Shown piece by piece: positions 1 through 52,218 of a stretch of 52,218 bases of DNA. The translations under genes were made by a program, and so were the position numbers. A model generated the notes under the pieces. That model had not been told where the DNA came from. It worked only from the letters and a program-made list of their open reading frames with translations, and made no database searches. Origin of the DNA: a virus (taxonomy: Duplodnaviria; Caudoviricetes); the IMG/VR virus record IMGVR_UViG_3300025846_000001, positions 1-52,218 of that record. One strand, 5' to 3'. The first letter of the stretch is position 1. Every line of letters begins with the position of its first letter.

Positions 1-127
1 AGAAATAAATTGTCTATGACCTTCAGTTCTTTTGACTTGCTCCCATCCAAGCTCTATAAGCAAGTCATTACCCCTCGACCATCCGCCCCACGAACCACAT
101 GCCCAATCATGCCCCTTATACTCTACT
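1..127. repeat. Direct terminal overlap, identical to 52092-52218 (circular assembly)
   Basis: The first 127 nt (agaaataaat...ctctact) recur exactly at 52092-52218. Confidence 0.97.
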
Positions 128-273
128 GCTGTATCATACTTAATTCTATCTGCATTAGATAATTTATTTCTTTCTTCTTCTGTAAGCTCCCATGTATTTT
201 TAACACTATCATTAGGCAACTGTAATTGATTATTAAGGATGTCCTTAAAAATTGGATGTAAATTATCATTCAT
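1..273 (-). CDS. Hypothetical protein (101 aa) spanning the circular junction, ending at TAA 52059-52061
   Basis: ATG at 273 in an AACCATGAA context; 91 open codons to base 1, then continues in frame from 52091 (LVKPKNIRIK*). Not in the ORF track. Confidence 0.75.
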   Translation of the reverse strand, partial: MNDNLHPIFKDILNNQLQLPNDSVKNTWELTEEERNKLSNADRIKYDTAVEYKGHDWACGSWGGWSRGNDLLIELGWEQVKRTEGHRQFIS

Positions 274-2218: not shown

Positions 2219-2307
2219 TATAATATTTTTAATATTAATCATATTTTAGTAACTATTTTCACCTCGAACGCTAATTTATATTGATTCTAACTTATATTAC
2301 TCTTTAA

Positions 2308-2495
2308 GATATAGCACCTCTATTCGGTAATTCTTATGAATATCCGCTTTGTTATTTAAACACTCAGGAAAGAAGACAGCCCCATCGTTAAGGGTTGGAT
2401 TGAACTTTTAAAGTATTACCGACCAAATTGTGAGTTTGCGCACGTTGTTTGGATTTGTTTATCGTTACCAAGCCTTCTCATCCTGCTCTGTTTTT
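2308..2495 (-). ncRNA. Putative structured ncRNA, copy A (homologous to 51663-51851)
   Basis: Colinear conserved blocks with copy B plus compensatory helices, e.g. UCGGUAAU/AUUACCGA versus UCGGACAU/AUGUCCGA. Confidence 0.75.
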
Positions 2496-2543
2496 GTTTT
2501 ACATTCGATATAATCAATACCGGCTAAACTGTGTCAAAATAGC

Positions 2544-3477: not shown

Positions 3478-3611
3478 CTATCTATGTTTTTAATTCTTTT
3501 AATCCTATTATCTCTCCTAATCACAGATATCCATTGTAACACCTGAATAATATCAATCTGTTCGTAACCTTGTTTTTCTAAGTCTTTTAATCTTTTTTCA
3601 AGTTCATTCAT
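3474..3611 (-). CDS. Hypothetical protein (45 aa)
   Basis: MNELEKRLKDLEKQGYEQID...; stop overlaps the ATG at 3477; follows leader L1. Confidence 0.6.
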   Translation of the reverse strand: MNELEKRLKDLEKQGYEQIDIIQVLQWISVIRRDNRIKRIKNIDR

Positions 3612-3625
3612 ATCTATAAAAATTT

Positions 3626-3742
3626 AAAACCCCCGGAAGCCTGGTGAGACTGGAGCGGGGGTCTTAGGTTAACCTTAATATCTTTATGTTTTTGCCTCAC
3701 CAAGCAGATACAAAATTAAAACATATTAATTTAATAAACAAA
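3626..3742 (-). promoter_or_regulatory. Promoter (TTTG-N20-TAATTTTG) plus pseudoknot leader L1
   Basis: -33 at 3739-3742, -7 at 3711-3718. The 5' segment 3694-3705 pairs (12 bp, 2 G-U) with 3639-3650 in the loop of hairpin 3656-3662/3629-3635, which is followed by Us. Confidence 0.75.
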
Positions 3743-9031: not shown

Positions 9032-9080
9032 CAAATTTATAAATACTCAATTCCCTATTAAGAAACATTAAGTTATATTA
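9032..9080 (-). promoter_or_regulatory. Putative late promoter: 25-bp box, 16-bp spacer, TAAATTTG
   Basis: Box 9056-9080 is identical to 20360-20384, with the same spacing to a TAnnTTTG element. Confidence 0.7.
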
Positions 9081-10605
9081 TATTCGAACAGCATCCAGCC
9101 AAAACAACTATCTCATCATAATCAAAAGTCAGATCCAGTTTAGCATAATATTTATCATCAAAAAGCCAATCATGTTCTACCTCAAGATTATAAACAGTAT
9201 TTGTATCGCCAACTAAATCAGTTAAAGCGATAGTATCATGTAGTCTTAATCTGTGGAATACATCAACCATATAATCGGGCATATTCTTTGTCCGGACAAG
9301 GTATTTCTTTGTCTGACGGGCAAAAGTCCTTACAAACCGTCCTTCCCCATTTTTCTGTCCTTCTTCTTCCAAAGGAAACGATGGCTCCATAGTTTCGGAT
9401 TCAAACCAAAGAGTTTGAGTGAATCCATCATGGTAAAGAATATCGCCTAAATCACAATTATTATGGAAATTAAGGATAAGATACTTGTCTGAATAAGATC
9501 TGAATACAAAAATCTCTGACACTGAAAAATTTAATGCGGCGGTATTAGTGAACCTAAATACAGCCATTTCGGTTGATGTTACGGTAAACGTAATTACATT
9601 TAACCCGGCAGTTGTTACAACCTGATTAGAAATTACTGCACCCCCTGATTTAGCTATATCAACTATTGGGAGTTCCCCTGAAATTTTAGTAAGATAGAAC
9701 AGAACTTCAATTATATCTCCTTTTGCGACCTGAAATTCATTACTATAATTAACTGCATTGCCGGCGTTATTAATTGCGGAGGTTATTGCCAGTCCTGATA
9801 CGTTTAAAGTATCATAATCATCACCGACATTAGGATTAGTTATCAGATTCTCGTAAATACAATCCACTTTAAACCATTCGGAATAATAAATAAATCCATT
9901 GTCCATTGTTATTTTCAAATAATACTCTCCGACTGGAAGCGAGTAATTAAGCGTATCACCTTTGTATTGAAAATAAACATCACTGGTTATAGCATGAGAA
10001 GCTGGAAGCGCAGAGAAATAACTATTAATATTTGCATAACCAATCTCTACGTTTGTAAATGAAAAATTACAATTTCCTCCTGCTGCTCTAATACTAAAAA
10101 ATATTGTAAGAGCCCCAGTAGAAGTATATGTTATAGTATTTAATCCGGCTGTTAAAGCTACTGTATTAACTACTGCATTATTATAATAAACATCGATAGA
10201 GGGCGCAGCGCCGGAATTTAATGTCAAAAATCCCTTAAAAGTGATTACCGTACCGATAGGACTATGAATATGCGCTTCTGCTCCATTACGCACTCCGGCA
10301 GAATCATTACCCCCATCTGAATTTACTGCACTTATAATATTAAGACCTGATGATGTAAAGGAATCAAATGAACCATTTACCCAGCTATCAAAAAGATTTC
10401 TGTAATAAGTATCCCCGTCTTTATTGATCATCTCTATATTAGATACCGTTGCGGCTCCGTCCGTTCCGTCCTTCCATTGAAAAGAAGGTAATCGGTGCCT
10501 CGGAGTTAAAGTAGGAATTATCCCATTTCCAGAATGTTTTGATCTCTCATAACATTGCTTTTCGATCTTATCGTAAATCGGGAGTGTAGTGATTATTGTT
10601 TTCAT
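9073..10605 (-). CDS. Minor tail protein (start re-called at MKTIITT)
   Basis: ATG at 10605 directly follows the upstream stop; two internal repeats (SGL.I.SA.N..GN); downstream of the tape measure. Confidence 0.7.
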   Translation of the reverse strand: MKTIITTLPIYDKIEKQCYERSKHSGNGIIPTLTPRHRLPSFQWKDGTDGAATVSNIEMINKDGDTYYRNLFDSWVNGSFDSFTSSGLNIISAVNSDGGNDSAGVRNGAEAHIHSPIGTVITFKGFLTLNSGAAPSIDVYYNNAVVNTVALTAGLNTITYTSTGALTIFFSIRAAGGNCNFSFTNVEIGYANINSYFSALPASHAITSDVYFQYKGDTLNYSLPVGEYYLKITMDNGFIYYSEWFKVDCIYENLITNPNVGDDYDTLNVSGLAITSAINNAGNAVNYSNEFQVAKGDIIEVLFYLTKISGELPIVDIAKSGGAVISNQVVTTAGLNVITFTVTSTEMAVFRFTNTAALNFSVSEIFVFRSYSDKYLILNFHNNCDLGDILYHDGFTQTLWFESETMEPSFPLEEEGQKNGEGRFVRTFARQTKKYLVRTKNMPDYMVDVFHRLRLHDTIALTDLVGDTNTVYNLEVEHDWLFDDKYYAKLDLTFDYDEIVVLAGCCSNII

Positions 10606-20320: not shown

Positions 20321-20360
20321 AAAAAAGGCCTGATACAAAATTAAATGATCAGACCTTTTT
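20321..20360 (-). terminator. Intrinsic terminator after the MCP, with a TAATTTTG promoter element in its loop
   Basis: AAAAAGGTCTGAT...ATCAGGCCTTTTTT. Confidence 0.7.
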
Positions 20361-20384
20361 ATTAAGAAACATTAAGTTATATTA
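20336..20384 (-). promoter_or_regulatory. Putative late promoter: 25-bp box, 16-bp spacer, TAATTTTG
   Basis: Same box and spacing as 9032-9080. Confidence 0.7.
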
Positions 20385-21392
20385 AGCACATGCAAATGCT
20401 AAAATACCAGAATTGGTTGCAGAGCAAGGAGCAGGATTCAGCGCAAACAGTCCATGAAGCTGAACTTTAAATGCGGTGAAGTAATCGTTATTCAAACAAG
20501 TCCTTTCAGTAAAGATGTCATAAGACACTCCCGGAAGGTTCCTTGAGTTTTCACTCCATGCCATCCTGTCAGCGGTGAGTTGTACGGCATTAGCACCACC
20601 AAGCGGATACCAAGCCTTGCCAACGAAAGCAACAGCGGTTTTATGCAGTAAGAACGTGTAAGCCGGGGCGATAACCTCAACATTTTCAGGGTCAAGATAC
20701 ATCTTCAGCGTATTCATCTTTGCATAATTACCTTTACCATCAGCATTACCAACTTCCAGAGACCGGTTAAAGATCAACTGATAAAGGTTTGTTCCGGTAA
20801 TACCATAAGGAGAAGTAAATTTATTCATCCTTGCAACCAGATCCATATAACCCCAGATATTATCATTCCAGTTACCTGGAGCAATAGTTGTCAGAGCGCC
20901 GGCAACGGTTCCAACACCTCCGGTATATACGTTCGTCCCAGCAGCAGCAAGAATCCCTGTTAAAACAAACTGAGCAATATACTCATCTAATAGTTTTTTA
21001 CGTCTCTCAATGAGGAATGCGATAGACTCTTCTGGGTTTGTAGTTCTCTCCCTATATACACGGTCGGCAACTTTAAAAGACGACTCCTGTAAACAGGTAA
21101 TCTCATATTCCTTACATTCCGGAGTTGCATCATCACCGTCAATAGAGCAATCATCGGTACATGCTTCGGTAGTGGCATCGCAATCAGTGAGCCATTCCAA
21201 AGAAATAACTTTCTTTTTATTCTTATCTTGAAGTTCACCAAACTTAACAGATTGGTTTTCAAGTACAGCCTTTGCAGCATTTACATCAGCTTTCAGATCA
21301 ATGTTTTTTATAGGATCAAGCCAGATCGCATCAGCTTTTGCCTGAATCGTAGCTAAATATCCACAGTCAATTAATGAGTTCGGTTGTGACAT
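20382..21392 (-). CDS. Major capsid protein (HK97 fold likely)
   Basis: 336 aa after the scaffold; spine-helix-like ESIAFLIERRKKLLDEYIAQFVL; followed by a terminator; 9 Cys. Confidence 0.8.
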   Translation of the reverse strand: MSQPNSLIDCGYLATIQAKADAIWLDPIKNIDLKADVNAAKAVLENQSVKFGELQDKNKKKVISLEWLTDCDATTEACTDDCSIDGDDATPECKEYEITCLQESSFKVADRVYRERTTNPEESIAFLIERRKKLLDEYIAQFVLTGILAAAGTNVYTGGVGTVAGALTTIAPGNWNDNIWGYMDLVARMNKFTSPYGITGTNLYQLIFNRSLEVGNADGKGNYAKMNTLKMYLDPENVEVIAPAYTFLLHKTAVAFVGKAWYPLGGANAVQLTADRMAWSENSRNLPGVSYDIFTERTCLNNDYFTAFKVQLHGLFALNPAPCSATNSGILAFACA

Positions 21393-23163: not shown

Positions 23164-23652
23164 TTATCTATTTTGAGGGTCAGAATAAATGCCGTTAAAA
23201 TTAGGATTAACAGAATACAGTTCATCTCTAAGAGGCTGACCTGTCCCTTTTTTAATTCGTCTATTCATTTCCTTAATATCTCTTTTGTCAGTTATCTGGA
23301 CATTATATTCTATTGTGAATGCTTTAAAATTCCTTTGTTTAATTAATTTCTTTTGAAACTTTAAACACTCTTTTGGAGGTTCTTTAAATTTATATAACTC
23401 ATTAATTAAATCATCATTTGCATTAATTAGCGTAAGTTTCTTGCGTTTATTAAATTGTTTTCTTGATTCCCTTTTCTTAGAAGACACTAATAACTCTTCT
23501 GCAAAAATAGTTCTATTAGCCGATTGTTCTGCTTTATTTTTAAAATGTTCCAATACTTCTTTTGGAAGATTTCCTTTTTTTGCGTTTTTTAACATTTTAT
23601 TTAATTCTAATTCAGTAAAAATACCAACCCCTTCAAAAATATATGTTTTCAT
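23164..23652 (-). CDS. Basic hypothetical protein (moron-like; start re-called at MKTYIF)
   Basis: Has its own promoter/leader L2 upstream and a terminator downstream; Lys-rich. Confidence 0.6.
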   Translation of the reverse strand: MKTYIFEGVGIFTELELNKMLKNAKKGNLPKEVLEHFKNKAEQSANRTIFAEELLVSSKKRESRKQFNKRKKLTLINANDDLINELYKFKEPPKECLKFQKKLIKQRNFKAFTIEYNVQITDKRDIKEMNRRIKKGTGQPLRDELYSVNPNFNGIYSDPQNR

Positions 23653-23659
23653 TTTGACA

Positions 23660-23784
23660 ATTTTAAAATCCCCTTCAAGTTCCGTCAGAAACAAGAAGGG
23701 GATTTGTGGTTTTTAAACCGTATTTCTTATATGTATCTGACGGAATACAATTACAAATATAAACCTTTATTTTTTATAAACAAA
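23660..23784 (-). promoter_or_regulatory. Promoter (TTTG-N19-TATATTTG) plus pseudoknot leader L2
   Basis: -33 at 23781-23784, -7 at 23754-23761. The 5' segment 23736-23745 is perfectly complementary (10 bp) to 23680-23689 in the loop of the 11-bp hairpin 23695-23705/23666-23676. Confidence 0.8.
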
Positions 23785-37775: not shown

Positions 37776-37886
37776 ATAAGTCCGAACGAAAAGGTATTGG
37801 AAGAGGCGTTCGGTTCCTTTTATCAATCGGTAATTACTCCGACCTATCCAATACCAAAGATAGTAATTATTATTCACTTTTGCAAA
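37776..37886 (-). promoter_or_regulatory. Promoter (TTTG-N20-TATCTTTG) plus pseudoknot leader L3
   Basis: -7 at 37855-37862. Segment 37847-37855 is complementary to 37793-37801 in the loop of hairpin 37807-37813/37782-37788. Confidence 0.7.
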
Positions 37887-46411: not shown

Positions 46412-47103
46412 TGGAGTGTTAATTCTTGTTTTGTGTAATAAACTTTATTTACAGTGATTGAATTTATTATAGTTGATTGCCAGTTTATATCCTTTGATCT
46501 TTTACTCTTTTTGAAATTCCATCCAGCTTCTGTTCCCCAAAAATTTACAAAACCTTTTTCAATTGAAAGTTTAACATTTATCCCCGGGTTTAATCTTTGT
46601 TGTGTTTTTAATAATTCTGGATTCTTCATAAATTTTTCATATCCCAGTTTACATTCGGACAAATAAACATCAAAATCAGATCGCCAATTAGTATTCTTAT
46701 CATTCTTTACTTCTTTAATAGTGGTTAGTTGTTGGTTAGTTGCTGGTTGATTGCTGGTTAGTTGTTGGTTAGTTTGCTGGTTGCTTCCATTTTTACAACC
46801 CTGATAAACTTCATAATTACAAACAGTTATAATACTAAATTTGCTGGTTGATTTGATGGTTATTTCTTTTGTAATTTCTAATTTTTTTAAACAAGTCCTT
46901 AAAGTTTGCTCACTTATTCCGGTTTTTTCATTCAATGATTTTCGACCTGTTACCATTTGCCCTCTTTTGATTTTTACCCCCCTCCATTCACTATCCATAT
47001 TATTTGCATTTAAAAGAAGATGAATGAAGAGATGAACCATTTCAGAAATATTATACCATTCCCATTCATCAAACTTCCGGTATAATTTAATCCAGGTCTC
47101 CAT
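46405..47103 (-). CDS. Phage replication initiator (replisome-organizer-like; start re-called at METWIK)
   Basis: WIKLYRK...W.WY, RGQ..T, HTH region, internal NQQ(L)T repeats. Confidence 0.8.
   Translation of the reverse strand: METWIKLYRKFDEWEWYNISEMVHLFIHLLLNANNMDSEWRGVKIKRGQMVTGRKSLNEKTGISEQTLRTCLKKLEITKEITIKSTSKFSIITVCNYEVYQGCKNGSNQQTNQQLTSNQPATNQQLTTIKEVKNDKNTNWRSDFDVYLSECKLGYEKFMKNPELLKTQQRLNPGINVKLSIEKGFVNFWGTEAGWNFKKSKRSKDINWQSTIINSITVNKVYYTKQELTLQC
46722..46785. repeat. Iteron-like direct repeats (tggttagttg / tgctggttg), probable origin
   Basis: About 5-6 short repeats inside the initiator gene, as in lambdoid origins. Confidence 0.6.
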
Positions 47104-47104
47104 A

Positions 47105-47256
47105 TTAAAAAGTAGCCCCGCTACCAAAAATAAAAACCACCAGCCCCGGGGAGAGTGACCTCCAGCTGATGGTATTATTCCCGATAACGGGGTATTTAAT
47201 TGTCGAGATTAAATCAAATTCATTCATGTCACTCTTAATTTGGTACCTCAAAGATA
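47105..47256 (-). promoter_or_regulatory. Promoter (TATCTTTG) plus pseudoknot leader L4 with a 40-codon uORF
   Basis: -7 at 47249-47256. Segment 47228-47235 is complementary to 47152-47159 in the loop of hairpin 47165-47173/47136-47144 (followed by Us); outer stem 47183-47192/47116-47125. Confidence 0.7.
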
Positions 47257-50436: not shown

Positions 50437-50897
50437 AACCTTACAGTTACTTTAGTCTTACCTGTTTTTGGAGGACGTGTTAAGAAGTTCCCATATACAG
50501 GGCAAACAGTTCCCTCCTCAGGAATTGATTTTAAATAGGTTTCACGAGCCTTAATCTTCTCTTTAAGGGTTTCTACTTCTTTAGTAAGATCAAGCCAAAT
50601 AGCATCGCCGGAATCGTTGTACAAATATTTCGTACCTACTTCCTGAACGGTGAATTTTATTCCCAGATGATCAAAGGTCTTTTCCTTGTACTTTTCAGCT
50701 TCAGTAAGAAAATGCTCTTCAATATCTTTATCGGTTAAAATATCTGCAAACACCTTTTCAATAAATTTCAACCTTTTGAGTATCTCTAAAGGGTCGCGGT
50801 CGTCTGCCAGAATCTCTGATTTAAGCATCCTGGTAAATTGTGCCACCTCCAGTTTTTCTGAAGGCAGCACGCTGATTGTTGATAATGCAGTTTCCAT
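50433..50897 (-). CDS. Hypothetical protein (recombination module)
   Basis: 154 aa; coupled to neighbours. Confidence 0.6.
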   Translation of the reverse strand: METALSTISVLPSEKLEVAQFTRMLKSEILADDRDPLEILKRLKFIEKVFADILTDKDIEEHFLTEAEKYKEKTFDHLGIKFTVQEVGTKYLYNDSGDAIWLDLTKEVETLKEKIKARETYLKSIPEEGTVCPVYGNFLTRPPKTGKTKVTVRL

Positions 50898-51634
50898 TAG
50901 AAGGGTAAATCTGAAAGTTCATCACTCTGATCTGCTTTTGACTTATTAACCAAGTCTTGTTTTGCGGAACCTTTTTGCCAATCCGGATTAGCAACAAACT
51001 CTTCGGTTGCTTCAGCTTTAGCAATTTCCTTTTCTGGTTGTTGGTTTTTATATTCATCCAAATAACCTTGAAGTATCTCATCCAATAAAATTGCTTCCTG
51101 TCTTATCTCATCAGTCATTTTAAAAGCCTTGAAAACAGGAACATTATAAACAGTATTCCCATTTGTTTCTTCTGTTAGATCAACAATTCCGACAACTGAA
51201 TTGTTTGTATTGAATTTCTTTTCAAGCCAGCCGGAAAATGAAGATCCTTTGAATTTAAAGTTTACCAGCTCATTTGTTCCATCTTTTTGAACAAGCAAAG
51301 CATAAACAGACTTTGTGTATTTGCCTCCAATAGCCTTTATAGAGTCTTTAACATCATTATAAAGTCCGATAATACTTTCCCCGCCTTTAAAGGTCTTGAC
51401 CCTTAAAATCTCTTTAACGGTTGAATGCACTTCATTTGAATACACACCGCAGTCATTTTTCTTATTGTAGCCGGAAATTGTTGAAAGCTCATCCAGTACT
51501 ACAAAATAAATAGGCATAGGAATTTCAATCTGAACTTCTTTTTCTTTATCATAATAGAAAAATTGTCCTTTGTCCCCTTTAAAGTCAATAAACTTCTTGC
51601 AGGGATTCTCTAATTTTGGTTTTGAAATACTCAT
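50897..51634 (-). CDS. Putative ssDNA-binding protein
   Basis: Beta-rich core and an acidic tail ending DLPF (SSB-type C-terminus). Confidence 0.6.
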   Translation of the reverse strand: MSISKPKLENPCKKFIDFKGDKGQFFYYDKEKEVQIEIPMPIYFVVLDELSTISGYNKKNDCGVYSNEVHSTVKEILRVKTFKGGESIIGLYNDVKDSIKAIGGKYTKSVYALLVQKDGTNELVNFKFKGSSFSGWLEKKFNTNNSVVGIVDLTEETNGNTVYNVPVFKAFKMTDEIRQEAILLDEILQGYLDEYKNQQPEKEIAKAEATEEFVANPDWQKGSAKQDLVNKSKADQSDELSDLPF

Positions 51635-51662
51635 TTTTTAAGGTTTAATTATTTAACATTTA

Positions 51663-51851
51663 ACATATCACTTTTATTCGGACATTATTATTAATATCCA
51701 TTTAACTTTATTTAAAGTTCTCAGGTCAAAAGATGCCCGCATTCGGTAACGGCTGAGTTTGAATCTTTATTCATGTCCGACCAAGTTGAGAAGTTGACTC
51801 AGAGCCTGGATTTTGTTATCTAACTCAGATCTTTATATCCTGCTTTGTTTT
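51663..51851 (-). ncRNA. Putative structured ncRNA, copy B (homologous to 2308-2495)
   Basis: Same conserved blocks as copy A; helices 51773-51780/51678-51685, CAGG..AAAGAU/AUCUUU..CCUG, CUGAGUU/AACUCAG. Confidence 0.75.
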
Positions 51852-51882
51852 GGATTACCCTATTTCGGGATGGGAAAAACTG

Positions 51883-52023
51883 TATCAAAAACCCTATGTC
51901 TGGCGTTACATGGGCTGTAAACGACTGCATCACTGCGGGCGGTTTTTCGCCAGAGCATAGAGCAATTTTTGATAAGTCTTTAATTTGTATCATTTACACC
52001 CATGTAAATCCAATACAAATATA
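51883..52023 (-). promoter_or_regulatory. Promoter (TATATTTG) plus pseudoknot leader L5
   Basis: -7 at 52016-52023. Segment 51990-52007 pairs (~18 bp, one bulge) with 51906-51924 in the loop of the long hairpin 51948-51974/51883-51905. Confidence 0.78.
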
Positions 52024-52091
52024 AACATTAATTCAATTCAAAGAACTTTTTTTGATATTTATTTTATTCTGATATTTTTCGGCTTAACAAG

Positions 52092-52218
52092 AGAAATAAA
52101 TTGTCTATGACCTTCAGTTCTTTTGACTTGCTCCCATCCAAGCTCTATAAGCAAGTCATTACCCCTCGACCATCCGCCCCACGAACCACATGCCCAATCA
52201 TGCCCCTTATACTCTACT
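52092..52218. repeat. Direct terminal overlap, identical to 1-127
   Basis: Exact copy of the first 127 nt. Confidence 0.97.

What the first reader, a model, noticed from the sequence alone, without database searches (positions are those of the whole stretch)
23660..23784. Five promoter leaders with unrelated sequence but one fold: the transcript 5' end pairs into the loop of a terminator-like hairpin
Seen at five TAnnTTTG promoters. L1 (3626-3718) has a 12-bp pairing, L2 (23660-23761) a perfect 10-bp pairing, L3 (37776-37862) 9 bp, L4 (47105-47256) 8 bp and L5 (51883-52023) ~18 bp. The layout is: -7 element, then a segment within 0-13 nt, an AT-rich spacer, a GC-rich hairpin whose large (>=18 nt) loop holds the reverse complement of that segment, a U-rich run (weak in L3), and the downstream gene. 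Primary sequences differ completely, so each pair is orthogonal to the others. The other promoters (2211, 9032, 33279) lack this layout. Inference: a ligand-independent attenuator family in which 5'-end/loop pairing competes with or stabilises termination, possibly switched by a phage antiterminator or by the short terminated RNA acting in trans (conceptually like P4 CI or P1 C4 RNA control). It gates the initiator, the SSB operon, an HNH-AP2 gene and two accessory operons.
Basis: partly seen in the sequence, partly recalled or inferred. Interest (0 to 1): 0.8.

Follow-up and report, generated by a model that had tools for sequence, protein, structure and literature searches.

The report
Phage leaders with self-clamped terminator hairpins
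Several operons of this uncultured Bacteroidota-type phage begin with a roughly 100-base RNA leader whose first bases pair with the loop of a terminator-like hairpin; this conserved fold matched no Rfam family and probably sets how much of each transcript reaches and expresses the genes.

Summary
The layout is real for L1, L2, L4 and L5. L3 is doubtful. In a genome-wide scan for interleaved helices, L1, L4 and L2 are the three best hits (-37.5, -33.8, -31.1 kcal/mol). Only 1 hit at or below -31.1 appeared in 25 shuffled genomes.

Relatives prove the pairing. An L2 homologue (L212) carries two adjacent compensatory pair changes. Five L4 homologues found through the downstream protein each have a different but complementary pair.

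The layout follows TAnnTTTG boxes in other viral contigs: 21 of 3134 sites against 7 of 2657 control sites, and 18 of the 21 have a T run. No Rfam family matches.

New points:
- In L1, L2 and L5 the 5' segment sits in a hairpin that starts at the inferred +1 to +3, so the contact is a kissing loop or pseudoknot.
- The contact never overlaps the terminator stem.
- L4 and L5 carry a leader ORF that starts at the 5' segment and reads through the hairpin (10 of 10 leaders).
- L1 and L2 are paralogues, not unrelated sequences.

Best reading (0.4): a self-clamped premature terminator, coupled to translation in L4 and L5. Main rival: a 5' mRNA stabiliser. No RNA data exist.

The parts
23754..23784 (-). 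L2 promoter: -33 TTTG and -7 box TATATTTG (23754-23761). The inferred +1 is about 23749.
   Evidence: Box position -12..-5 comes from a PMC9723704 passage. The TSS is inferred, not measured.
23732..23749 (-). L2 5'-terminal hairpin H1 (6-bp stem, 6-nt loop). It carries segment A (23736-23745).
23708..23719 (-). L2 small spacer hairpin (GGTT..AACC). It is part of the scaffold shared with L1, L212 and L213.
23666..23705 (-). L2 terminator-like hairpin H2. B is 23695-23705 and B' is 23666-23676. The 18-nt loop holds A' (23680-23689), 5 nt after B and 3 nt before B'.
   Evidence: -22.2 kcal/mol. In homologue L212, two compensatory pair changes fall in A/A'.
23653..23669 (-). L2 U run and A/U-rich linker up to the start codon at 23650-23652 of the 162-aa gene (23164-23652).
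3711..3742 (-). L1 promoter, a paralogue of the L2 promoter. The -7 box is 3711-3718.
3625..3706 (-). L1 leader fold. H1/A is 3693-3706, B is 3656-3666, A' is 3639-3650 and B' is 3625-3635. The U run is 3618-3629 and the start codon is 3609-3611.
   Evidence: z -5.1; rank 1.
47249..47256 (-). L4 -7 box.
47105..47235 (-). L4 leader. A is 47228-47235. The leader ORF is 47105-47227 (40 codons) and starts directly after A. The outer helix is O 47188-47192 with O' within 47112-47120. B is 47165-47173, A' is 47152-47159 and B' is 47136-47144. The U run is 47126-47136. The ORF's stop lies 1 nt before the DnaD-like gene's start at 47101-47103.
51886..52023 (-). L5 leader. The -7 box is 52016-52023. 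A (itself a hairpin) is 51993-52008. A 57-codon ORF starts at 51993 and ends at 51820. B is 51948-51960, A' is 51906-51921 and abuts B' at 51894-51905. The U run is 51886-51893.
   Evidence: (z -5.8). No homologous leader was found.
37782..37862 (-). L3, a doubtful member. The -7 box is 37855-37862. Segment 37847-37855 overlaps the box. The hairpin is weak (37782-37813) with A' at 37793-37801, and there is no U run.
   Evidence: P 0.06; rank 9; -18.2; -7.0. The orthologous HNH gene in L213 has a well-formed leader.

Best explanation
These are cis-acting leader RNAs of one family, which I call self-clamped premature terminators.

A host-type (sigma-A, TAnnTTTG) promoter starts a transcript. Its first ~20 nt are a small hairpin beginning at about +1 to +3 in L1, L2 and L5, or a plain segment at about +10 in L4. 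These bases pair with the apical loop of a strong hairpin. That hairpin is followed at once by a U run, and the first gene starts 10-25 nt after the U run.

The contact is a kissing-loop or pseudoknot tertiary contact. It coexists with the terminator stem and does not compete with it.

Inferred working:
- The hairpin plus U run terminates part of the transcripts, which attenuates expression.
- The clamp forms as soon as the loop is transcribed. It ties the 5' end down, pre-organises the large-loop hairpin, and leaves a compact, nuclease-resistant leader on both the short and the read-through RNA.
- In L4 and L5 the 5' segment is also the ribosome-loading region of a 31-57-codon leader ORF that reads through the hairpin and, in the L4 family, ends within about 17 nt of the gene's start codon.
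- If a ribosome loads before the loop is made, it blocks the clamp and follows the polymerase through the terminator. That gives read-through and coupled translation, as in pyrBI.
- If no ribosome loads, the clamp closes the leader ORF's start site and termination follows.

Shown: the helices, their covariation, the link to the promoter, the U run and the open frame.
Inferred: the start sites, termination itself, and every functional consequence.
For: Non-random occurrence.

Covariation of the 5'/loop helix:
- L212 against L2 shows two adjacent compensatory changes, in a homologue found with a pattern that excluded A and A'.
- L213 has the same scaffold and a different 8-bp pair.
- In 5 of the 6 loci fetched through the DnaD-like protein, the leader is present with a different complementary pair. 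The sixth has no intergenic space.
- In the cross matrix, cognate pairs average -13.8 and non-cognate pairs -6.8 +/- 2.5. The cognate pair is the best in 8 of 9 rows.
- In a second subfamily, aligned by a covariance model that did not contain this helix, 7 of 7 kissing pairs are 100% paired and 3 changed on both sides. The whole structure is 98.7% paired against 73.2% in shuffles, with 0 of 500 shuffles as high.
- The outer and main stems of the L4 family are 98.2% paired, and 7 of 14 pairs changed on both sides.

Promoter link and U run: 20 of 3134 TAnnTTTG sites against 2 of 2657 control-motif sites. Without the tail rule the counts are 21 against 7, and 18 of the 21 have at least 5 T in 9 against a 17.6% background.

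Terminator likeness:
- Stabilities of -19.6 to -22.2 against -12.5 to -17.1 for operon-end terminators of the same genome, which have similar T-rich tails.
- A canonical terminator already closes the operon upstream of L1, so the L1 hairpin must act on its own transcript.

Leader ORF: it is open in 10 of 10 leaders, with the ATG at the inferred +17..+22 in 9 and at +13 in L016, where the -7 box was not identified. The ATG is invariant in the 7-row alignment, and the other frames hold 0-13 stops. The peptides are not conserved.

Geometry: 4 or more nt lie 5' of A' and 0-9 nt lie 3' of it, which allows both helices at once.
Against: - No transcript ends were measured and no RNA data exist.
- The 5'/loop helix does not touch the terminator stem, so there is no obvious switch in L1 and L2, which also lack a leader ORF.
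- In the subfamily with an inner stem, the hairpin folds well without the clamp. 'Pre-organising' is therefore not needed there.
- The open frame is only weakly improbable in each leader (P 0.03-0.17 for nine leaders and 0.000 for L167), and the leaders are related.
- The U run could be partly the A/U-rich initiation region.
- L3 fails.
- Relatives of the L5 gene have no leader.
- The first 50 kb of the cultured Cellulophaga phage phi38:1 has no such layout at 58 sites.
Confidence: 0.4

Rival explanations
1. The fold is a pure 5' mRNA stabiliser and insulator. The 5'-terminal hairpin, locked by the kissing contact, shields the 5' end from 5'-end-dependent RNases. It leaves a normal-length open initiation region. 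The hairpin does not terminate to any useful extent.
For: - H1 starts at the inferred +1/+2 in most hairpin-type leaders.
- The gap from the hairpin to the ATG is 10-25 nt (median 17) in 16 external leaders and 13 nt in L1 and L2. The usual Bacteroidota 5' UTR is about 23-24 nt (passages).
- No part of the fold competes with the stem.
Against: - The T run directly after the stem is far above background (18 of 21 against 17.6%). A stabiliser does not need it.
- In L4-type leaders A starts at about +10 to +16, and several leaders leave 5-8 unpaired 5' nt.
- The idea does not explain the leader ORF.
Confidence: 0.25
2. The kissing complex is a sequence-independent docking shape for a phage or host protein, in the way Rom binds RNA I/RNA II kissing loops or N binds boxB. 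That protein makes the polymerase read through the terminator, which would time early and middle operons.
For: - Strong terminator-like hairpins sit directly before replication and accessory operons. The structural operons (promoters 9039 and 20343) lack them.
- The geometry is conserved although the sequence is free.
Against: - No candidate protein was identified.
- No conserved DNA or RNA sequence element lies near the leaders beyond the promoter.
- The Rom and N analogies are recalled, not tested.
Confidence: 0.12
3. The leaders are small-RNA genes. The terminated RNAs of about 95-110 nt act in trans, on nascent sibling leaders or on other targets, as in P4 CI or P1 C4 immunity. Distinct A/A' pairs keep the circuits orthogonal.
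For: - Leaders within one genome always carry different A/A' pairs.
- L1 and L2 keep the scaffold but differ most in A/A': 25-40% identity there against 58% elsewhere.
Against: - A cis partner on the same molecule should outcompete any trans partner.
- By duplex energy L4 is not orthogonal to the loops of L2 and L5.
- Gradual compensatory drift explains the diversity.
- The Rfam scans, which compare with every Rfam family, gave no match at any leader.
Confidence: 0.1
4. The complementarity is chance or a DNA-level inverted repeat with no RNA role.
For: - L3 and L4 are not significant by themselves.
- A loose first descriptor gave as many hits on the plus strand as on the minus strand.
Against: The shuffles, the promoter-anchored controls and the compensatory changes in independently retrieved homologues.
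Confidence: 0.03

Closest known systems
pyrBI-type attenuation in E. coli: a leader ORF reads through an intrinsic terminator (recalled, not read here)
   Same: In L4 and L5 a leader ORF of 31-57 codons starts near the 5' end and runs through the terminator-like hairpin and its U run. It ends close to the gene start, so a closely following ribosome could prevent termination.
   Different: There is an extra long-range pairing of the leader ORF's loading region with the terminator loop. No evidence for UTP-sensitive pausing. L1 and L2 have no leader ORF. The host is Bacteroidota-type, which does not use Shine-Dalgarno sequences.
Phage P4 CI RNA (seqA/seqB/seqC) and P1 C4 antisense control (recalled)
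   Same: Complementary segments within a phage operon leader are associated with premature termination.
   Different: Those act in trans from a processed RNA and belong to immunity circuits at a single locus. Here there are 4-5 loci per genome, the partner is on the same molecule, there is no sign of processing, and no Rfam family matched.
5'-terminal stem-loop stabilisers such as the ompA and aprE leaders (recalled)
   Same: A hairpin begins at or next to the first transcribed base (TSS inferred).
   Different: Here the hairpin loop is additionally locked to a downstream terminator-like hairpin, and a U run follows.
MS2 maturation-gene leader and the hok mRNA fold-back: a start region closed by long-range pairing, so that only nascent RNA is translated (recalled)
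   Same: In L4 and L5 the pairing covers the 8-16 nt just before the leader ORF's ATG. It would close that start once the loop is transcribed.
   Different: The partner is a terminator loop inside the same ORF. No toxin is involved, and the pairing spans only 50-90 nt.
Kissing-loop antisense attenuation in plasmids pT181 and pIP501 (recalled)
   Same: A loop-loop contact on a nascent leader lies next to an intrinsic terminator.
   Different: There the antisense RNA comes in trans and works by displacing a pre-emptor helix. Here both loops are in cis and no alternative helix is seen.
B. subtilis pyrG leader: the 5' end pairs with the terminator (recalled)
   Same: The transcript's extreme 5' end pairs with a downstream terminator hairpin.
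   Different: In pyrG, extra 5' G residues pair with the terminator stem and abolish it. Here the loop is the partner. The only Rfam PyrG_leader match is a chance-level one on the opposite strand (20.7 bits against a gathering score of 65, E 0.97).

Membership tests
Intrinsic (Rho-independent) terminator | A stable G+C-containing stem followed directly by a U run | tested here: met
   L1, L2, L4 and L5 have stems of -19.6 to -22.2 kcal/mol with U runs. 18 of 21 layouts elsewhere have a T-rich tail. L3 does not meet this.
Intrinsic (Rho-independent) terminator | RNA 3' ends form at the U run | not testable with these tools
   No RNA run is available.
Classical terminator/antiterminator attenuator or riboswitch expression platform | An alternative helix that shares bases with the terminator stem | tested here: not met
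   A' lies wholly in the loop, and 4 or more and 0-9 nt of linker separate it from the stem arms.
Leader-ORF attenuator (pyrBI type) | A translated leader ORF runs through the terminator | tested here: inconclusive
   The open frame and a conserved ATG are present in 10 of 10 L4/L5-type leaders and absent in L1-L3. Translation was not shown.
Pseudoknot riboswitches (preQ1, SAM-II, fluoride, ZTP) | A conserved ligand-binding core sequence | tested here: not met
   The paired segments share no sequence. Rfam gave no hit at gathering score, and nothing above chance at E<=1.
P1 C4 / P4 CI antisense RNAs | A match to the curated RNA family, and a trans-acting processed RNA | tested here: not met
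   The Rfam scans gave no match. Processing is not testable here.
5'-terminal stem-loop stabiliser | The hairpin lies within a few nt of the RNA 5' end | tested here: inconclusive
   H1 starts at the inferred +1 to +3 in L1, L2, L5 and most hairpin-type relatives. The TSS is only inferred from the box position.
New leader family defined here | TAnnTTTG box; 5' segment within about 20 nt of +1 complementary to the apical loop of a hairpin; U run; leader 85-114 nt, or longer when a leader ORF is present | tested here: met
   L1 (95 nt), L2 (97 nt), L4 and L5 meet it. L3 (89 nt) fits in size only.

The most novel reading that the evidence does not exclude
The clamp makes termination depend on where the RNA started. 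Only a transcript whose own 5'-terminal hairpin is free to kiss the terminator loop is terminated (or spared). Each operon of a genome transcribed entirely in one direction would then own a privately addressed terminator. The distinct A/A' pairs would be orthogonal addresses that can also be read in trans by accumulated leader RNA or by a shape-specific protein. That would be a set of programmable, ligand-free, sequence-addressed attenuators.
Probability: 0.12. Interest if true: 0.85.

Novelty: new variant of a known kind. Interest (0 to 1): 0.66.

Why it matters
Regulatory RNAs of Bacteroidota phages, and of their hosts, are poorly charted, and translation there does not use Shine-Dalgarno sequences.

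This is a covariation-supported leader fold with no Rfam match that recurs in uncultured phages. It sits in front of replication genes, accessory genes and homing-endonuclease genes, several times per genome, and each copy has its own complementary pair.

If the clamp tunes termination or mRNA life, it would be a compact, ligand-free control part whose address can be changed at will. That would be useful for Bacteroides and Flavobacterium engineering.

The L4/L5 form would also show how coupling of translation and transcription is exploited in a phylum where this is barely studied.

Tried and rejected
- A first loose descriptor (a run of 8 bp or more including G-U pairs anywhere within 110 nt upstream, plus a strict T tail) gave 8 hits on the minus strand and 9 on the plus strand, and missed L2, L4 and L5. 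I dropped it for an energy-based scan of interleaved helices. Plus-strand top hits of that scan are mirror images of the same loci, so they are not an independent control.
- DNA search of the L2 region against cultured phages found no match. The same was true for the leader region of L152.
- Neighbours of L2 gave no useful relatives in viral contigs.
- Relatives of the gene after L5 (L004-L006) have a gene directly upstream and no leader.
- L003 and L020 have no leader.
- The first 50 kb of Cellulophaga phage phi38:1 has 0 layouts at 58 box sites.
- MAFFT alignments A2, A4, A6 and A7 were not consistent with the structure. The covariance-model alignment A13 put the loops of L018 and G001 into insert columns, so the 5'/loop helix of the L4 family was judged from the per-sequence table and the cross matrix rather than by column counts. 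In one search the automatic parser chose a wrong hairpin for L016. The 9-bp pair of L016 was read by eye.
- Model R1 did not find L061, L155 or the window's L1 and L2. Model R2 did not find L017, L016, L167 or L181. The subfamilies are therefore linked by architecture, not by a single model.
- Sequencing runs: no RNA holder is listed (two peat-metagenome DNA holders).
- Literature searches found no description of such a leader. Only search listings were seen for those. Passages were read in PMC9723704, PMC7366714 and PMC10234816. Supplements are closed; the TSS tables of PMC9723704 and PMC7366714 could refine the distance from box to +1.
- Readings considered and dropped: small self-cleaving ribozymes and group I introns (no Rfam hit), retron ncRNA (no RT gene), and an operator palindrome for GGTT..AACC (the spacing varies by 0, 2 or 4 nt).

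Full report
**What the window is.** The window is a complete 52,218-nt virus record. Practically all genes lie on the minus strand. There are no tRNAs and no Rfam family at gathering score. Its primase-helicase is most similar (31-35% identity) to proteins of Cellulophaga and Flavobacterium phages. Its intergenic regions carry the Bacteroidota sigma-A box TAnnTTTG. The box alone means little here: it occurs 39 times on the minus strand and 35 times on the plus strand.

**The observation.** After the box comes a 5' segment A, then an A-rich spacer, then a hairpin B/B' whose large loop holds the reverse complement A', then (except in L3) a U run and the gene. Exact coordinates are in 'parts'. 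The pairings are:
- L1: 12 bp, including 2 G-U pairs.
- L2: 10 perfect bp.
- L3: 9 bp, including the last G of the box.
- L4: 8 bp.
- L5: 9 bp, a bulge, then 6 bp.

**Is it more than chance?** Against 2000 shuffles of each loop, the duplex energies of L1, L2 and L5 lie 5-6 standard deviations out. L3 (P 0.06) and L4 (P 0.13) do not stand out. A first loose descriptor showed no strand bias and was abandoned.
- A scan of the whole genome for any pair of interleaved helices put L1 (-37.5), L4 (-33.8, using an 18-bp outer helix) and L2 (-31.1) in ranks 1-3. L5 ranked 6 and L3 ranked 9, within the background.
- Twenty-five dinucleotide shuffles of the genome gave one hit at or below -31.1 in all; the best hit of a shuffled genome was -28.6 or weaker in 23 of the 25.

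**Relatives of L4.** A search with the DnaD-like protein that follows L4 returned six metagenome loci.
- Five have a leader of the same build upstream of the gene. The sixth has no intergenic space.
- A 53-kb related phage (G001) has the same leader before a methylase gene.
- Each leader has a different A and a matching A'. Examples are AGAGTGAC/GTCACTCT in the window, AGTGTACG/CGTACACT in L019, and GCGAGCAA/TTGCTCGC in L017.
- In a cross matrix, cognate pairs average -13.8 and non-cognate pairs -6.8 +/- 2.5. The cognate loop is the best partner in 8 of 9 rows. The exception, L016, was mis-parsed by the script.
- A covariance model built from the window's L4 and L019 finds L018 and G001 at E of about 1e-5. 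On that alignment the main and outer stems are 98.2% paired, and 7 of 14 pairs changed on both sides (the alignment is fitted to those stems).

**Relatives of L2, the finding's own coordinates.** L1 and L2 turned out to be paralogues. They share an 18-nt identical promoter block and a spacer scaffold (ACATA.., GGTT..AACC, CCCC). A pattern made only of that scaffold, which excludes A and A', found 7 viral stretches. Two of them have a promoter box and the full layout.
- L212 is nearly identical to L2 through the leader. Its A is TTCCGCGAGA and its A' is TCTCGCGGAA. Compared with L2 (TTCCGTCAGA/TCTGACGGAA), that is two adjacent base pairs exchanged on both strands.
- L213 has the scaffold with yet another pair (ATACGAGG/CCTCGTAT). 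It precedes a gene 47% identical to the window's HNH gene, the gene behind L3. L3 is therefore best seen as a decayed copy.
- L3's weaknesses: its segment overlaps the box, so only about 4 nt would be transcribed. Its hairpin is weak (-7.0). It has no U run.

**Spread beyond this phage.** Two promoter-pattern scans gave 189 viral loci totalling 1.68 Mb.
- With the T-tail rule, the layout follows 20 of 3134 TAnnTTTG sites against 2 of 2657 sites of the composition-matched control motif GTTTnnAT.
- Without any tail rule the counts are 21 against 7. Of the 21, 18 have at least 5 T in the 9 nt at the stem end, against a 17.6% background. Only 1 of the 7 control hits does, and that one is a true leader hit by accident.
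- These leaders are 85-114 nt long (median 97.5), with 10-25 nt between hairpin and ATG. L1, L2 and L3 measure 95, 97 and 89 nt.
- No Rfam family covers them.

- Position of the 5' segment. With the box at -12..-5 (passage in PMC9723704), most leaders begin with a small hairpin H1 at +1/+2 that carries A in its loop. In many relatives the big hairpin H2 has an inner 3-4-bp stem that presents A' as an 8-10-nt apical loop. The contact is thus a kissing-loop complex.
- In the window's L1, L2 and L5 the complementarity runs on into the stems of H1 and of the inner part of H2, giving 10-16 bp.
- Independent covariation of the kissing helix. On a model-based alignment of 8 such leaders (7 distinct), where the model did not contain the kissing helix, that helix is 100% paired and 3 of its 7 pairs changed on both sides. 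The whole structure is 98.7% paired against 73.2% in shuffles, with 0 of 500 shuffles as high.
- A' never shares bases with B or B'. The linkers (4 or more nt on the 5' side, 0-9 nt on the 3' side) allow both helices together. The pairing is a clamp, not an antiterminator.
- Leader ORF. L4-type leaders and L5 have an ATG 0-3 nt after A, at the inferred +17..+22 (+13 in L016, whose -7 box was not identified). That is the usual 5'-UTR length in this phylum (passages). The ATG opens a frame of 31-57 codons (100 in L167) that runs through hairpin and U run.
- In the L4 family the ORF ends between 17 nt before and 15 nt after the gene's start codon. The arrangements include TAA-n-ATG and the overlaps TGATG and ATGA.
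- The frame is open in 10 of 10 leaders. The ATG is invariant in the 7-row alignment. P(open) is 0.03-0.17 for nine leaders and 0.000 for L167. The other frames hold 0-13 stops. The peptides are not conserved.
- L1-L3 have no such ORF.

**How it most likely works.** The hairpin with its U run is built like the genome's own terminators and is at least as stable as them. It sits between a promoter and the first gene. At L1 a canonical terminator already closes the upstream operon, so the leader hairpin must act on its own transcript.
- I read the leaders as premature terminators whose loop is clamped by the transcript's 5' end.
- In L4 and L5 the clamp covers the ribosome-loading region of a leader ORF whose translation would melt the terminator. 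Early ribosome loading would therefore give read-through and coupled translation. Late or absent loading would give a closed start site and termination. This logic resembles pyrBI attenuation and the MS2 maturation-gene kinetic trap (both recalled).
- In L1 and L2 there is no ORF and no competing helix. The clamp's effect there is open: on termination efficiency, on RNA stability, or as a docking shape.
- The main rival is a pure 5' stabiliser. It fits H1 at +1 and the RNase E/G plus RNase Y, RNase J-less make-up of the Bacteroidota studied (passages in PMC10234816). It does not explain the U run or the leader ORF.
- All functional steps are inferred. No RNA data could be found.

**Novelty.** No Rfam family and no paper in three full-text searches (listings only) describes a leader in which the 5' end or a 5' hairpin kisses the loop of a promoter-proximal terminator. 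The kind (structured leader or attenuator) is known. This architecture, its recurrence within genomes with different 'addresses', and the ORF-bearing form are new variants.

**Verdict.**
- Observation: partly confirmed. Four of five leaders hold, and 'unrelated sequences' is overstated.
- Interpretation: partly supported.
- Interest: 0.66.

Noticed in passing
window 2260-2540 (- strand): About 280 nt with no ORF of 60 codons or more lie between the end of the acetyltransferase-like gene (2544) and the promoter box at 2218. It could be an RNA gene or an attachment/origin region.
   Followed up: no
window 9039-9085 and 20343-20390 (- strand): The two promoters before the structural-gene blocks share a 24-nt upstream block (aatataacttaatgtttcttaata). 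It may be a site for a late-gene activator. At 20343 the -7 box sits in the loop of the upstream operon's terminator hairpin.
   Followed up: partly
window 1-273 and 52059-52218: An ORF runs off the low end (273 to 1), and another open frame enters at the high end (52217 to 52059). This fits a circularly permuted genome, but the frames are offset by one base.
   Followed up: no
window 51635-51885 (- strand): About 250 nt lie between the L5 hairpin and the next long gene (start 51634). Part is covered by the 57-codon ORF and the rest is non-coding. L5 may therefore make a separate small RNA or small protein rather than lead that gene.
   Followed up: partly
L203:3472-3571, L063:8783-8882, L181:4011-4139, L213:7336-7449; window L3: Several leaders precede homing-endonuclease genes. 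The GIY-YIG assignment was read by eye from the N-termini. The HNH assignment rests. The same leader (A = CCTCTTAC) stands before different genes in L155 and L206. Promoter plus leader looks like a portable cassette.
   Followed up: partly
L183:8475-8510, L063, L203, L179:436-519, L061: The big hairpin of one subfamily has a conserved symmetric 4x4 internal loop (UGAU/UGAU or a close variant) between the lower stem and the 4-bp inner stem. It may be a tandem G-A motif.
   Followed up: no
L183:2293-2325: The Rfam DUF805b RNA motif matches above its gathering score (38.8 bits). It is unrelated to the leaders.
   Followed up: no
L006:2500-2760: A long run of GCT/GAT-rich triplet repeats (Ala/Asp-rich coding) lies in a related 53-kb phage, upstream of the phrog_6706 homologue.
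   Followed up: no
window 50897-51634: The phrog_6706 protein of unknown function ends in ..SDELSDLPF. This acidic tail ending in PF recalls the C-terminal tip of bacterial SSB (recalled).
   Followed up: no
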